The notes under the pieces are model-generated. The model saw only the letters and a list, made by a program, of their open reading frames with translations. It made no database searches and was not told the origin of the DNA. A stretch of 64,000 nucleotides of DNA, from contig OZ024740.1 of assembly GCA_964016885.1 (NCBI GenBank), positions 288,734,001 to 288,798,000 on the forward strand, read 5' to 3'. Source of the stretch: Eledone cirrhosa (lineage: Eukaryota). Each line of letters begins with the position of its first letter. Position 1 is the first letter of the stretch. The translations under genes were made by a program, and so were the position numbers. Below are positions 1 to 64,000 of the stretch, piece by piece.

Positions 1-34
1 AGCAGCAGCTCTGTCTGCGACAAAGAACAACAAG
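1..34 (+). CDS. 3' end of a putative coding exon (…SSSSVCDKEQQ + g), phase-1 donor
   Basis: Frame 1 is open from base 1 and ends caag|gtacaa. The phase-1 end joins the 4144 exon in frame (g+aa = Glu). Only 34 nt are visible and the donor is weak. Confidence 0.45.
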
Positions 35-1826
35 GTACAATGCACGGTGTGGAATAGCATGGTCTGCTTTAATTGTCAGACTTCTCCAAGAAAAAAAAAA
101 GTTCCTTGTGTTTTCTTGAAGAACATTGAACCCCTTGCTGAATTTTCTGCATGATATTCCGTCTGCTTTCAGTGCTCACAGTAGATGATTGCACTTTGAC
201 ACTCTGATAACCAACATGAAATATTTCTTTACCTTTTTTTTTGTTTTTCTTTTGTTTCCTTATATTTTAATGGGTCCTCATATAAGTGTAAATTAGATTA
301 AGTTATATCAATAACCTCAAGAGATTTACACCTATGTTAATAAGAGCGCATAATAATGATATTGAGATCATATTGTTGCTAATGCCATCCATAGATATCA
401 ATGGTTTTTATTTCATCATGAGATGTGCTTGACTTGAAAGAATGGAGCTTTACTGAAGAAATCCATGTTGAAATATATTGAACAAAGATTGTGTTGTGTT
501 GGTATTACAGAATTTCAATATTACCAACTATAGAACTACTTAAATTGTATTTGCAAACTATTTGAGGACCCTGACTCTTTGCTTCCAGTTGGCTGACAAA
601 CTATATCCTTCTTTGCCCAAATCATTTTTCATGACTATTTTGCATTTTCTGTTTTTACAAATTTTAGATTTCATCCTTTCTTTCCTTTTTTTTTTTTTTT
701 TTTCCAAATGTCTTACTAACAATGTTTTTTGGGTGTATTCGGTCATTTCTTTCAGTGATTATTATCACTTAGAATGTTCTAAATCTGCGTAGTCTGTCGT
801 TCGTTTTGCCTTGAATCTTCCTTCCTAATCAAATGGTCCCTTGTCTTCAACTCTATTCAAACCTAACATAATGGAATAAAACAATTCAAATTTTCAGAAC
901 TATTTGCATGAAATTTTGGGATGCAATATTTATCTTACTTGGATTAGTCTTTTGGGTTTTGTTTTTCTTTTCCACTTTTCCTGTTCTTCTCTTCCATAAG
1001 ATTTTAAAGCATGCCTGCTCTCTCAAGAATGCATTCCTTCAAATTTTGGACTCTGCTCATTATTTACTGTTATGCCTGCAGTTACTTCATTTTTCATTCA
1101 GTTTTTGGATTAGATAGAAGAAATTAATTTGTTCTATTAAAATAAACTTTACAAAATTATTAATTAAATTTTAACTAACTAAAGCTAACATAATTAGTAT
1201 TAAGTGATTCCTTCCTGCTTGTTGTTATTTAAGTCATTGATATCTGGTATGATTCCAAACAGTATTTCCCATTGACATTGTTGGAGACAAAATACAGACT
1301 GAACTTATAACTCTGTATTCAGCATCTTATGAAATCTGTCTCTGTTTTATCATTATTATTTTAAAGCAGATAGCAATGAAATTACTCTAACAGATTTGTC
1401 TTTCAAATGAAAAAAATGGCTATAGAGAGCTTTACAGTTGCATTTTTGGCATAGAAAGTATTTTCTGTGTTTGTTATGTCTTAGTTCAGATCATGGTTGG
1501 ATACAATATGATCTCAACACTCATTTGATTTCACATAACAGATTCCTTGTTGCCGTATATTAATCTGTATTCAGGACTTTCAATTTATATCTTCAACACT
1601 TATGAATTTATTAGTGTTTTACTTTTTCATTTAAAGTGAGATTTGACTACTATATTACGAAGTTAAATATTGTATTTGGTCTGCTTTTTGGCATATTAAG
1701 TATTCTGTGTAGATTTATGTATGCAAACTGGGCCCCACTCTATGCAAAAATTTAATAGATCCATACTAATAGGTTTATTTCTATATAAGTTGCCATCTTA
1801 TTGTTTCATAGGCTTACAATCTAAAC

Positions 1827-59800: not shown

Positions 59801-62800
59801 ATTGCCAGAAGTGATATTGACCCATGAAAATGTTCAAACTGTTCAAATGAGCCCTGGTCAACTTCCTGGTAATTTGTCAACAGATCAAGATATTCCATGT
59901 GTACCTCCACCTACTGGTCAAAGTAGCAGAAATTCCTTGGGTAGAGGTGTCTATCATGTTGATCAACCTGTCAGTCTGGAAACTTTATACAATGTTAAGA
60001 AACCTTCTATTGAAGCAAGTGAGTATCCTGTTGACCATTCAGCTGATGTCATTGAGAACGCTGATGTCAACATTTCTTATGCTCCACATATTCCATATGG
60101 TCAAGATTCTAATATTGAATGGAAATCTGGTCAAGATATTCCAAAAGTAAAAATGGCCAAAAGTGAAGATAATTTTCAATATGGTGATCTACCTACAAGT
60201 GAACAGCTACAGAAGTCAAATGTAACCACACCTACTGGTCAATATGGTGTCTACCATGTTGACCTTCCTGTGGATCTGGAACAACTACATTGTGTTGCCC
60301 AGCCTTCTCGTCCAGATGTCTCTGGATATGTAGATAAAACTATTGGTCAACCTGACATCACTGCTGGTCAAGATCTCCCTGAAGCTATTGAACAATCTCA
60401 AGGAGAATATCATGTAAAACCAGTTGATCTCCCAGCAGGTGAAGATCATTTAACTGATGAACAAGATGGTCAAGAAATTAAACTGCCTTCTTTTCAAGAT
60501 GTTCCATGTGTACAGATATCCAATCAAGATACTAAATCTGCTTATATTCCCAGTGAGCAATACAGTGATCCCATTGCCACACCCACAGCTCAAGAGAGAC
60601 AAGATAACAGACAGTCCATTGGTGAAGGTGTCTATCATGTGGATGTCCCTATAGCTTTAGAGAGCCTTCATCGAATTGACCGATCTAAGGGACAAAAACC
60701 ACGTAGCCATGTTCATCAGCCTTCTGATCAGGGTGTCAAAAATACTGACCATGATCTCAGAAAAAGTGTTGAGCTACACAGTGGCCAAGACCCTCTCCAA
60801 GATATCACTCTGTCACCTGATCAATATCAACAATTGCCAGAAGTGATATTGACCCATGAAAATGTTCAAACTGTTCAAATGAGCCCTGGTCAACTTCCTG
60901 GTAATTTGTCAACAGATCAAGATATTCCATGTGTACCTCCACCTACTGGTCAAAGTAGCAGAAATTCCTTGGGTAGAGGTGTCTATCATGTTGATCAACC
61001 TGTCAGTCTGGAAACTTTATACAATGTTAAGAAACCTTCTATTGAAGCAAGTGAGTATCCTGTTGACCATTCAGCTGATGTCATTGAGAACGATGATGTC
61101 AACATTTCTTATGCTCCACATATTCCATATGGTCAAGATTCTAATATTGAATGGAAATCTGGTCAAGATATTCCAAAAGTAAAAATGGCCAAAAGTGAAG
61201 ATAATTTTCAATATGGTGATCTACCTACAAGTGAACAGCTACAGAAGTCAAATGTAACCACACCTACTGGTCAATATGGTGTCTACCATGTTGACCATCC
61301 TGTGGATCTGGAACAACTACATCGTGTTGCCCAGCCTTCTCATCCAGATGTCTCTGGATATGTAGATAAAACTATTGGTCAACCTGACATCACTGCTGGT
61401 CAAGATCTCCCTGAAGCTATTGAACAGTCTCTAGGAGAATATCATGTAAAACCAGTTGATCTCCCAGCAGGTGAAGATCATTTAACTGATGAACAAGATG
61501 GTCAAGAAATTAAACTGCCTTTTTTTCAAGATGTTCCATGTGTACAGATATCCAATCAAGATACTAAATCTGCTTATATTCCCAGTGAGCAATACAGTGA
61601 TCCCATTGCCACACCCACAGCTCAAGAGAGACAAGATAACAGACAGTCCATTGGTGAAGGTGTCTATCATGTGGATGTCCCTGTAGCTTTAGAGAGCCTT
61701 CATCGAATTGACCGATCTAAGGGACAAAAACCACGTGGCCACATTGATCAGCCTTCTGATCAGGGTATCAAAAAAACTGACCATGATCTCAGAAAAAGTG
61801 TTGAGCTACACGGTGGCCAAGACCCTCTCCAAGATATCACTCTGTCACCTGATCAAGATCGACAATTGCCAGAAGTGACATTGACCCATGAAAATGTTCA
61901 AACTGTTCAAATGAGCCCTGGTCAACTTCCTGGTAATTTGTCAACAGATCAAGATATTCCATGTGTACCTCTACCTACTGGTCAAAGTAGCAGAAATTCC
62001 TTGGGTAGAGGTGTCTATCATGTTGATCAACCTGTCAGTCTGGAAACTTTATACAATGTTAAGAAACCTTCTATTGAAGCAAGTGAGCATCCTGTTGACC
62101 ATTCAGCTGATGTCATTGAGAACGATGATGTCAACATTTCTTATGCTCCACATATTCCATATGGTCAAGATTCTAATATTGAATGGAAATCTGGTCAAGA
62201 TATTCCAAAAGTAAAAATGGCCAAAGGTGAAGATAATTTTCAATATGGTGATCTACCTACAAGTGAACAGCTACAGAAGTCAAATGTAACCACACCTACT
62301 GGTCAATATGGTGTCTACCATGTTGACCTTCCTGTGGATCTGGAACAACTACATCGTGTTGCCCAGCCTTCTCGTCCGGATGTCTCTGGATATGTTGATA
62401 AAACTATTGGTCAACCTGACATCACTGCTGGTCAAGATCTCCCTGAAGCTATTGAACAGTCTCTAGGAGAATATCATGTAAAACCAGTTTATCTCCCAGC
62501 AGGTGAAGATCATTTAACTGATGAACAAGATGGTCAAGAAATTAAACTGCCTTCTTTTCAAGATGTTCCATGTGTACAGATATCCAATCAAGATACTAAA
62601 TCTGCTTATATTCCCAGTGAGCAATACAGTGATCCCATTGCCACACCCACAGCTCAAGAGAGACAAGATAACAGACAGTCCATTGGTGAAGGTGTCTATC
62701 ATGTGGATGTCCCTATAGCTTTAGAGAGCCTTCATCGAATTGACCGATCTAAGGGACAAAAACCACGTGGCCACATTCATCAGCCTTCTGATCAGGGTGT

Positions 62801-64000
62801 CAAAAAAACTGACCATGATCTCAGAAAAAGTGTTGAGCTACACAGTGGCCAAGACCCTCTCCAAGATATCACTCTGTCACCTGATCAAGATCAACAATTG
62901 CCAGACGTGACATTGACCCATGAAAATGTTCAAACTGTTCAAATGAGCCCTGGTCAACTTCCTGGTAATTTGTCAACAGATCAAGATATTCCATGTTTAC
63001 CTCCACCTACTGGTCAAAGTAGCAGAAATTCCTTGGGTAGAGGTGTCTATCATGTTGATCAACCTGTCAGTCTGGAAACTTTATACAATGTTAAGAAACC
63101 TTCTATTGAAGCAAGTGAGTATCCTTCTGACCATTCAGCTGATGTCATTGAGAATGCTGATGTCAACATTTCTTATGCTCCACATATTCCATATGGTCAA
63201 GATTCTAATATTGAATGGAAATCTGGTCAAGATATTCCAAAAGTAAAAATGGCCAAAAGTGAAGATAATTTTCAATATGGTGGTCTACCTACAAGTGAAC
63301 AGCTACAGAAGTCAAATGTAACCACACCTACTGGTCAATATGGTGTCTACCATGTTGACCTTCCTGTGGATCTGGAACAACTACATCGTGTTGCCCAGCC
63401 TTCTCGTCCAGATGTCTCTGGATATGTAGATAAAACTATTGGTCAACCTGACATCACTACTGGTCAAGATCTCCCTGAAGCTATTGAACAGTCTCTAGGA
63501 GAATATCATTTAAAACCAGTTGATCTCCCAGCAGGTGAAGATCATTTAACTGATGAACAAGATGGTCAAGAAATTAAACTGCCTTCTTTTCAAGATGTTC
63601 CACGTGTACAGATATCCAATCAAGATACTAAATCTGCTTATATTCCCAGTGAGCAATACAGTGATCCCATTGCCACACCCACAGCTCAAGAGAGACAAGA
63701 TAACAGACAGTCCATTGGTGAAGGTGTCTATCATGTGGATGTCCCTGTAGCTTTAGAGAGCCTTCATCGAATTGACCGATCTAAGGGACAAAAACCACGT
63801 GGCCACATTCATCAGCCTTCTGATCAGGATGTCAAAAAAACTGACCATGATCTCAGAAAAAGTGTTGAGCTACACAGTGGCCAAGATATCACTCTGTCAC
63901 CTGATCAAGATCAACAATTGCCAGAAGTGACATTGACTCATAATCTCAGAAAAAGTGTCCAACCTATTGATCAGGATGTTGAAGAATATTGCTATTATGT
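53863..64000 (+). CDS. Giant exon 2 (>10,138 nt, open to window end): unique ~450-aa N-terminal part then ~8.5 x 344-aa repeats; tentatively a giant ankyrin long exon
   Basis: Acceptor tttttgctttacag|tc, phase 1. Frame +3 reads (V)TWKRSNAMKKRKHKKKSP…IDVEEYDKILEDGTLYHIKRVRR…EEYEINEVIPGTENSF… and is still in frame at the end (…VQPIDQDVEEYCYY). The in-frame ATG at 53886 is absent from the ORF track, as expected if no stop occurs. Confidence 0.92.
55212..63940 (+). repeat. Coding tandem array of 1032-bp units (8 full plus ~0.47)
   Basis: Unit starts (GACATCACT) at 55212, 56244, 57276, 58308, 59322, 60354, 61386, 62418 and 63450. Unit 4 is 1014 bp. The off-frame ORFs in the track recur with the same spacing. 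Confidence 0.98.

What the first reader, a model, noticed from the sequence alone, without database searches (positions are those of the whole stretch)
1..64000. All-phase-1 exon chain with two giant exons: candidate cephalopod giant ankyrin with modular long isoforms
Seen: every boundary (34|, 4144-4200, 30225-30314, 37617-42203, |53863) is phase 1. The exons splice in frame as …DKEQQ-E-ISPQTKTPPPSPTETSTS-E-LVSHR…PSAT-E-ADNADGQM…SDSK-V-TWKRS…, and any internal exon can be skipped without a frameshift. Known: protostome ankyrins (Drosophila Ank2 L/XL, C. elegans unc-44) carry giant neuronal exons downstream of the death domain. Inference from memory only: TPPPSP and the EEYDKILEDGT…VKRKV…EEYEINEVIPGTE segment resemble molluscan ankyrin tails. 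No ANK, ZU5 or death domain is visible here.
Basis: partly seen in the sequence, partly recalled or inferred. Interest (0 to 1): 0.78.

Follow-up and report, generated by a model that had tools for sequence, protein, structure and literature searches.

The report
Octopus ankyrin with four giant exons
This window is the middle of an octopus ankyrin gene whose tail is built from in-frame, skippable exons, including three well-supported giant ones and a probable fourth, so the gene likely makes anything from an ordinary ~1,800-residue scaffold to giant forms of over 7,000 residues, which would, as in flies and worms, organise nerve fibres.

Summary
Observation confirmed, interpretation supported and extended. 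All eight listed splice sites are canonical and phase 1. ANK, ZU5-ZU5-UPA and death-domain exons lie 13-150 kb upstream on the same strand; one UPA exon is 100% identical to Octopus bimaculoides ankyrin. Exon B continues past the window to 66,432 (12,570 nt). Two more giant exons follow (C 8,115 nt; F 9,918 nt), then a conserved terminal exon. Thirteen consecutive tail exons are symmetric phase 1-1 and form one open frame; all-in length would be about 14,160 aa. One contig of an apparently RNA-derived run splices an upstream tail exon straight into B, skipping 59.9 kb including exon A. O. bimaculoides models show the same cassette skipping; its short isoforms stop by reading through the donor at 30,314. 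Exon A is a conserved reading frame (59% identity), but no junction to it was seen. The published survey lists at most two long exons per ankyrin and no cephalopod; RefSeq already models these isoforms as 'titin-like' or 'uncharacterized'. The neuronal role and co-inclusion of all giant exons are inferred, not shown. Verdict: a real variant of a known kind, moderate interest.

The parts
1..34 (+). 3' end of tail exon w0 (213 nt, phase 1-1, begins 179 nt before the window), optional. The ankyrin core and tail exons t1-t3 lie upstream, outside the window (coordinates in the Full report section)
   Evidence: present in 35 of 78 short O. bimaculoides isoforms; core:
4144..4200 (+). Exon w1 (57 nt, 1-1, TKTPPPSPTE), optional; TPPPSP also in gastropod and bivalve ankyrins
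   Evidence: in 16 of 78 short O. bimaculoides isoforms
30225..30323 (+). Exon w2: phase-1 donor at 30314, or read-through to TAG (30321-30323) as the last coding exon of short ankyrins
   Evidence: 78 of 78 short O. bimaculoides isoforms end ...PSATGV; use of the donor not observed
37617..42203 (+). Long exon A (4,587 nt, 1-1, 1,528 aa); conserved ORF, splicing into ankyrin not shown
   Evidence: 59% identity over 1,202 columns to O. bimaculoides A0A0L8HCD8 with the same donor read-through end; donor in top 0.39%, acceptor in top 7.6% of local sites
38951..39760 (+). 30-nt (10-aa) repeat array inside exon A, about 25 copies
   Evidence: weak Pfam Decapeptide match E 0.008, under the cut-off
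53863..64000 (+). Long exon B, continuing beyond the window to 66,432 (12,570 nt, 1-1, 4,189 aa); followed outside the window by b2, b3, long exon C, D, E, long exon F, f2, a penultimate exon and terminal exon H (coordinates in the Full report section)
   Evidence: 5' junction from exon t3 in run X1; homolog joined to downstream exons in 15 O. bimaculoides models
54015..54401 (+). Conserved head module of exon B, predicted all-beta hairpin array
   Evidence: 29-66% identity in 7 molluscan sequences; AlphaFold2 mean pLDDT 88, pTM 0.64 from 8 rows; no clear fold match
55221..63459 (+). Tandem array in exon B: 8 complete units of 1,032 nt (344 aa; one of 338) plus partial copies
   Evidence: units 2-8 are 97.6-99.5% identical, nonsynonymous/synonymous ratio about 1; contig depth about 10 times the unique part in run X2

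Best explanation
The window is the post-death-domain tail of an octopod canonical ankyrin gene, where 13 consecutive symmetric phase-1 exons, four of them over 3 kb (exon A only probably included), likely act as mix-and-match cassettes that yield short or giant ankyrins, the giant ones predicted to link the membrane skeleton to microtubules in neurons. Steps: (1, shown) ANK-ZU5-ZU5-UPA-DD exons lie upstream on the same strand. (2, shown in sequence) any tail exon from t3 to f2 can be dropped without a frameshift. (3, shown in relative's models; polyadenylation inferred) short ankyrins end by reading through the w2 donor into a stop codon, likely followed by intronic polyadenylation. (4, shown by one contig here and by one relative's model) giant ankyrins arise when splicing jumps past w2 from an upstream tail donor into B or into b3-C, and they then run to a common conserved last exon. 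(5, inferred) the long exons encode mostly low-complexity acidic spacer whose length changes by repeat expansion, studded with short conserved islands (B head, C-tail and F motifs, terminal exon) that are the likely binding sites. (6, inferred from fly and worm) the giant forms organise axonal microtubules and calibre.
For: Domains upstream; single UPA_2 locus in G000. One open frame of 12,339 aa from t2 to the stop in H; 14 of 14 tail introns are phase 1 against 7 of 33 mapped core introns further upstream. Run X1: one contig (1,424 nt, depth 14.9) begins with the last 30 nt of t3 and enters B at 53863, while X2 and X3 contigs run unspliced through that acceptor. O. bimaculoides, 95 sequences held: 78 short forms in 4 tail combinations, all ending in w2; 1 model core-t2-b3-C-D-E-F-f2-H (XP_052823414.1, 7,515 aa); 15 models B...f2/H, with b2, D or E skipped in 4 of them. 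Biomphalaria (6,523 aa), Mytilus (4,957 aa) and Potamilus (2,363 aa) ankyrin models carry the same landmarks in the same order behind the core. C and F meet the published composition signature (S+E 28-29%, SETDKP 59-67%; against PMC5135030).
Against: The X1 junction is a single contig of a run whose kind and tissue are not on record; its upstream side is 30 letters, one short of the tool's 31-letter rule for bridging; X1-X4 are one study and may include this assembly's source. Exon A is in 0 of 79 core-bearing O. bimaculoides sequences held (78 of them from size-limited or same-cluster look-ups) and stands as a separate model there. No sequence held contains core plus B plus C plus F together, so co-inclusion is unproven, and the relatives' models are automated predictions. 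A and B fail the Ser/Glu signature (S+E 17.0% and 14.7%). The 344-aa repeats show no purifying selection (10 synonymous against 33 nonsynonymous variants, ratio 0.94). Use of the w2 donor at 30314 was not observed. Nothing here tests neuronal expression or microtubule binding.
Confidence: 0.85

Rival explanations
1. Exon A is not an internal cassette: it is either an alternative last exon of ankyrin (stop 14 nt past the donor) or a nested single-exon gene.
For: In-frame ATG at 37601, 16 nt before the acceptor; stand-alone O. bimaculoides model ending SKGNYGF through the same donor; absent from all 79 core-bearing O. bimaculoides sequences held; weaker acceptor; no match in the non-octopus ankyrin sequences held.
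Against: Donor AAG|GTAATT is in the top 0.39% of local GT sites and identical to B's donor; both ends are phase 1 and lie within 16 nt of the ORF's limits; the read-through peptide over the donor is identical in two species while the body is 59% identical, as expected of a conserved splice site.
Confidence: 0.3
2. The giant isoforms serve mainly muscle or another non-neural tissue as titin-like elastic or anchoring scaffolds rather than axons.
For: Tissue of X1 unknown; Pro/Lys/Glu/Ser-rich repeats in C; databases call the models 'titin-like'; vertebrate ankyrin C-termini bind obscurin in muscle (recalled; search listed reviews, not read).
Against: The 'titin' names are automatic; no Ig or Fn3 family was returned for A or the window part of B. 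Published giant ankyrins of fly, worm and Ciona are neuronal (PMC5135030 sections read; PMC7159925 passages).
Confidence: 0.25
3. Exons B to H are a separate downstream gene ('titin-like' LOC106881226 of the 2015 O. bimaculoides annotation), only adjacent to ankyrin.
For: 15 O. bimaculoides models start inside B without the core; B has an ATG 8 codons in.
Against: t3-to-B splice in X1; the later RefSeq model joins the core to C-H; gastropod and bivalve ankyrins carry the B head and H behind the death domain.
Confidence: 0.03
4. The upstream gene is another family (FERM/band 4.1, spectraplakin, titin).
For: UniRef names the O. bimaculoides isoforms 'Titin'.
Against: Those same proteins carry ANK, ZU5, UPA_2 and Death Pfam domains and map exon by exon to the upstream DNA.
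Confidence: 0.01

Closest known systems
Bilaterian giant ankyrins with the long exon downstream of the death domain (Jegla et al. 2016, PMC5135030; Aplysia 7,569+6,560 nt, Lottia 6,818 nt)
   Same: ANK-ZU5-ZU5-UPA-DD core; long exons over 3 kb after the DD; repeat arrays; Ser/Glu-rich composition in C and F.
   Different: Four long exons (35,190 nt together; 30,603 nt without A) against at most two per locus in that survey's Table S4; the largest total there is Drosophila's 32,936 nt; no cephalopod surveyed. A and B lack the composition bias. The 344-aa repeat unit exceeds the 12-76-aa units listed.
Drosophila Ank2-L / Ank2-XL
   Same: More than one non-homologous long exon behind the DD; large array of near-identical repeats proposed as a spacer (93 x 76 aa in XL).
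   Different: No sequence similarity found: among the named hits of the exon-F search none was an arthropod, and most hits were unnamed. Microtubule binding and axon-calibre control are shown in the fly (as cited in PMC5135030 and a passage of PMC6131297), untested here.
C. elegans unc-44 giant isoform (AO13)
   Same: Single ankyrin gene; short forms end at a proximal site and the giant form needs passage beyond it (review passage, PMC10730144).
   Different: One 14,974-nt long exon; the switch is by transcription termination control, while here only the read-through stop and the bypassing splice are seen. The UNC-119/CRMP link (PMC7159925 passages) was not tested.
Octopus bimaculoides RefSeq/UniProt models LOC106871604 (XP_052823414.1), LOC106881226 (XP_014787027.1 etc.) and A0A0L8HCD8
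   Same: Orthologous exons and junctions; 81-98% identity in C, D, E, f2, H and the tested part of F.
   Different: Named 'uncharacterized' or 'titin-like'; B and A were split off as separate models in the older annotation. B there is about 1,980 aa with two to three diverged copies of the 344-aa unit, against 4,189 aa here (the older assembly may have collapsed near-identical copies).

Membership tests
Canonical ankyrin | N-terminal array of 24 ANK repeats | tested here: met
   O. bimaculoides repeat region maps exon by exon at -148 to -80 kb, except two short stretches not aligned; the exact count of 24 was not tallied
Canonical ankyrin | ZU5-ZU5-UPA cassette | tested here: met
   Pfam hits in order on the + strand
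Canonical ankyrin | Death domain after UPA | tested here: met
   PF00531 E 3.7e-12
Canonical ankyrin | Binds spectrin and membrane proteins | not testable with these tools
   Inferred from near-identity of the core to other ankyrins
Bilaterian giant ankyrin | Exon over 3 kb downstream of UPA (protostomes: after the DD) | tested here: met
   A 4,587; B 12,570; C 8,115; F 9,918 nt
Bilaterian giant ankyrin | Long exon spliced to the ankyrin mRNA | tested here: met
   B: one t3-B contig; C and F: RefSeq model of a relative
Bilaterian giant ankyrin | Long exon A spliced to the ankyrin mRNA | tested here: inconclusive
   No junction listed (416 joints not shown); stand-alone model in the relative
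Bilaterian giant ankyrin | Composition bias S+E about 25%, SETDKP over 55% (exons C, F) | tested here: met
   C 28.0/67.2; F 28.9/59.4
Bilaterian giant ankyrin | Composition bias S+E about 25%, SETDKP over 55% (exons A, B) | tested here: not met
   A 17.0/43.1; B 14.7/42.0; these two are atypical long exons
Bilaterian giant ankyrin | Neuronal expression and axonal microtubule organisation | not testable with these tools
   No run with a tissue record was listed
Titin / FERM / spectraplakin | Ig/Fn3, FERM or spectrin-repeat domains | tested here: not met
   Pfam returned none for A, the window part of B or ten upstream exons; the upstream DNA encodes ankyrin domains instead. C and F were not scanned.

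The most novel reading that the evidence does not exclude
Octopods use ankyrin as a combinatorial length dial: four unrelated giant cassettes can be chosen singly or together, up to a ~14,000-residue (~1.5 MDa) protein, the largest long-exon total of any surveyed ankyrin. Cell-type-specific choice plus fast repeat expansion would tune membrane-to-microtubule spacing and axon calibre in unmyelinated cephalopod nerves, through conserved islands such as an undescribed all-beta module at the head of exon B.
Probability: 0.2. Interest if true: 0.75.

Novelty: new variant of a known kind. Interest (0 to 1): 0.45.

Why it matters
Giant ankyrins organise the axon in vertebrates, flies and worms, and their origin is debated partly because the long exons were thought to keep no usable homology. 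This locus gives the cephalopod gene, hidden in databases as 'titin-like' or 'uncharacterized', with twice the number of long exons recorded in the published survey. It also shows short conserved islands that line the giant exons up across octopus, snails, bivalves and a nemertean. Those islands are concrete candidates for binding sites, and the junction map makes it directly testable whether cephalopods tune nerve-fibre architecture by choosing giant exons. A giant ankyrin in an octopus is itself expected.

Tried and rejected
ORF G (128199-131285, GGDATxYS repeats) first looked like a fifth long exon. Rejected: 83% of codons end in T, so only 2.5 stops are expected; similar tracts occur at many other places in G000 (125 matches in all, 6 at the locus itself); it is in 0 of 95 O. 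bimaculoides sequences. My first D donor (96423) was replaced by 96099. Homolog search with the B head among proteins of 372-2,000 aa: 0 of 1,059 candidates scored; the homologs came from later local BLAST. No RNA holder listed for exon B; exon A had only patchy contigs in X1 with intronic pieces at similar depth, which says nothing either way. ESM Atlas: no usable hit for the B head, only scores under 0.8 for part of F. B head: 0 PDB sequence hits, no Pfam hit for the octopus row and only weak Tcp10_C in 2 of 8 rows, no Foldseek match at E<=0.001, best VIA Z 7.0 on generic sheets; this does not show a new fold. Rfam: 0 matches in the window. EB-binding SxIP-like motifs: one weak case in A, none in B, C or F under the strict pattern. 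Sequence cells of Table S2 in PMC5135030 are cut at 400 characters, so the published long-exon proteins could not be compared. Literature searches found no paper on a cephalopod giant ankyrin: 2 listings; 14; 0; 23 hold the terms, 10 listed; 2; subscription journals are largely not covered. Earlier findings of the scan: nothing near, and 8 of 26 shown by words were unrelated.
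Full report
Coordinates are window coordinates, extended outside the window as G000:C1 position minus 288,734,000 (the window is C1:288,734,001-288,798,000).

1. Observation. The listed boundaries are all canonical and phase 1, and the spliced chain is one open frame of 4,968 codons. ORF A (1,539 codons stop to stop) and ORF B (at least 3,387) are far beyond chance: longest frame in 200 shuffles 172 and 255 codons; 77 and 117 stops expected from positional base composition, 0 seen. 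The other long frames in the window are (TA/TG)n tracts.

2. Identity. A ZU5 search of the genome gave its best hit 40.6 kb upstream on the + strand. Pfam on upstream exons gave Ank, ZU5 (three exons), UPA_2 (two) and Death in the canonical order. One UPA exon is 100% identical to 48 O. bimaculoides ankyrin entries, which map exon by exon from -148 kb to +30 kb, with an alternative first exon at -228 kb. ANK exons span -148,341 to -80,282, ZU5-ZU5-UPA exons -40,656 to -16,389 and death-domain exons -14,948 to -13,393. Only one UPA_2 locus was found in the genome (that search scores only its best candidates). The organism is therefore an octopod close to O. bimaculoides.

3. Tail anatomy. After the death domain come t1 (-11,847 to -11,747), an optional 45-nt exon and t2 (-9,444 to -9,381; phase 0 to 1). 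Then follow 13 symmetric phase 1-1 exons: t3 (-6,211 to -6,005; 207 nt), w0 (-178 to 34; 213), w1 (57), w2 (90), A (4,587), B (53,863-66,432; 12,570), b2 (75,926-76,087; 162), b3 (79,572-79,622; 51), C (82,160-90,274; 8,115), D (95,578-96,099; 522), E (105,746-105,889; 144), F (110,303-120,220; 9,918) and f2 (125,411-125,467; 57). A phase 1-to-2 exon (138,024-138,084) and terminal exon H (139,753-139,954) close the gene. From t2 to the stop this is one frame of 12,339 aa; with the 1,821-aa core of the relative's model the ceiling is about 14,160 aa, or 12,631 without A. All 14 tail introns are phase 1, against 7 of 33 mapped introns further upstream (a few ANK exons were left out of that tally). 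b2 and f2 were found by scanning for phase-1 exons and then confirmed in O. bimaculoides models.

4. Splicing evidence. No run on record as RNA holds exon B. Run X1 (kind not recorded, 88 million letters) has one contig that enters B at the acceptor with 28 foreign letters. Those letters occur once in the 434 kb examined and end at the donor of t3, so the joint skips 59,867 nt (w0, w1, w2, A) in frame. X2 and X3 run through the acceptor unspliced, so I infer X1 is RNA. Limits: one contig, 30 letters on the short side (the tool asks for 31), one study, tissue unknown. Among 95 O. bimaculoides sequences held: 78 short isoforms (27 t2-t3-w2, 19 with w0, 16 with w0 and w1, 16 t2-w2) all end PSATGV by reading through the w2 donor, as the window also allows; one model is core-t2-b3-C-D-E-F-f2-H (7,515 aa); 15 start in B, of which 10 carry b2-b3-C-D-E-F-f2-H, 2 lack b2, 1 lacks E, 1 lacks D and 1 ends at f2; one is exon A alone.

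5. Conservation. The B head (54015-54401) matches Biomphalaria, Crassostrea, Potamilus, Dreissena, Mytilus and Elysia at 29-41% and is predicted as an array of long beta-hairpins (pLDDT 88 from 8 rows) with no clear solved match. The landmarks TPPPSP, B head, C-tail RPPSPSEFTL, E SSSSEVAQ and H occur in this order in a 6,523-aa Biomphalaria ankyrin model; Mytilus and Elysia models add D and F landmarks. The last 1,000 residues of F found 50 proteins at E<=0.001; the named ones are octopus, Mytilus, Elysia, Lymnaea and the nemertean Tubulanus (19 of the 50 were looked up), sharing SS(V/I)DSFxTVV and repeated S[LI]xEFExLE motifs. Exon A has one homolog, in O. bimaculoides: 59% over 1,202 columns with 20 gap openings and an intact frame, ending in the same read-through peptide over the donor. 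It is coding, but its place in the transcript is open. Exon B's 344-aa unit is present in 8 complete copies; copies 2-8 are 97.6-99.5% identical with no sign of purifying selection, and contig depth over the unit is about ten times the unique part in X2, which fits the assembly. O. bimaculoides has two to three copies at 27-47% identity to the unit here.

6. Mechanism. Shown: identity, exon symmetry, one long-range in-frame splice, read-through stop in w2. Inferred: intronic polyadenylation after w2 (first AATAAA at 31,684); spacer role of repeats; binding role of conserved islands; neuronal microtubule organisation, by analogy with Drosophila Ank2-L/XL and C. elegans UNC-44.

7. Known context. 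PMC5135030 (abstract, parts 1-4 of 10 of the main section, Table S4 whole, Table S2 searched with sequence cells cut) finds long exons in 23 of 36 bilaterian ankyrins, two per locus in 8 of 23 and never more, includes Aplysia and Lottia but no cephalopod, and reports no homology between distant long exons but a Ser/Glu bias. Here C and F meet that bias and A and B do not. PMC7159925 (passages), PMC10730144 (one passage) and PMC6131297 (two passages) supply the worm and fly functions; Stephan et al. 2015 was seen only as cited there. Searches listed no paper on a cephalopod giant ankyrin. The published molluscan counts may be low, since gastropod models here also carry B-head, C and F landmarks.

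8. Verdict. New relative to the survey: four long exons (one unproven), a combinatorial phase-1 cassette block, a recent 344-aa repeat expansion and alignable conserved islands. Expected in kind and already auto-annotated in a relative, so interest 0.45.

Noticed in passing
window 11489-18051 and 36073-37228: Very long (TA/TG)n tracts (6.5 kb and 1.2 kb) that give spurious stop-free frames of up to 1,400 codons on both strands.
   Followed up: yes
window 52564-52914 (-) and about 4500-5000: Remnants that look like Tc1/mariner transposase sequence (recalled resemblance, not tested); high-copy in reads around 52 kb.
   Followed up: no
window 47880-49066 (-): Broken frames resembling LINE reverse-transcriptase ends (recalled resemblance, not tested); similar pieces at about 144,800-149,600 downstream.
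   Followed up: no
L012, extended coordinates 128199-131285: A 3-kb GGT/GAT-rich minisatellite with phase-1 AG/GT ends that mimics a giant exon but is absent from all related models held.
   Followed up: yes
L021-L023, extended coordinates -77640 to -56801: A second block of optional exons in the ANK-to-ZU5 linker (96, 159, 270, 207 nt), used in different combinations in O. bimaculoides isoforms.
   Followed up: partly
L007, extended coordinate 79569-79572: Tandem NAGNAG acceptor of exon b3 matches the AGQEP/GQEP variants in O. bimaculoides models.
   Followed up: yes
L007, extended coordinate 82160: The acceptor of exon C scores poorly (pyrimidine tract about 50 nt upstream) yet matches the junction in the relative's models.
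   Followed up: partly
P0233 (Elysia crispata) residues 62-190 and 379-507: The B-head module occurs twice in this gastropod, suggesting it is a duplicable unit.
   Followed up: no
P0001-P0047 (UniRef entries among them): UniRef labels O. bimaculoides ankyrin isoforms 'Titin' although they carry ANK, ZU5, UPA and Death domains.
   Followed up: yes
G000:C21:6848689 and C25:11890463: Two other ZU5-bearing loci in the genome without a UPA_2 hit; not examined.
   Followed up: no
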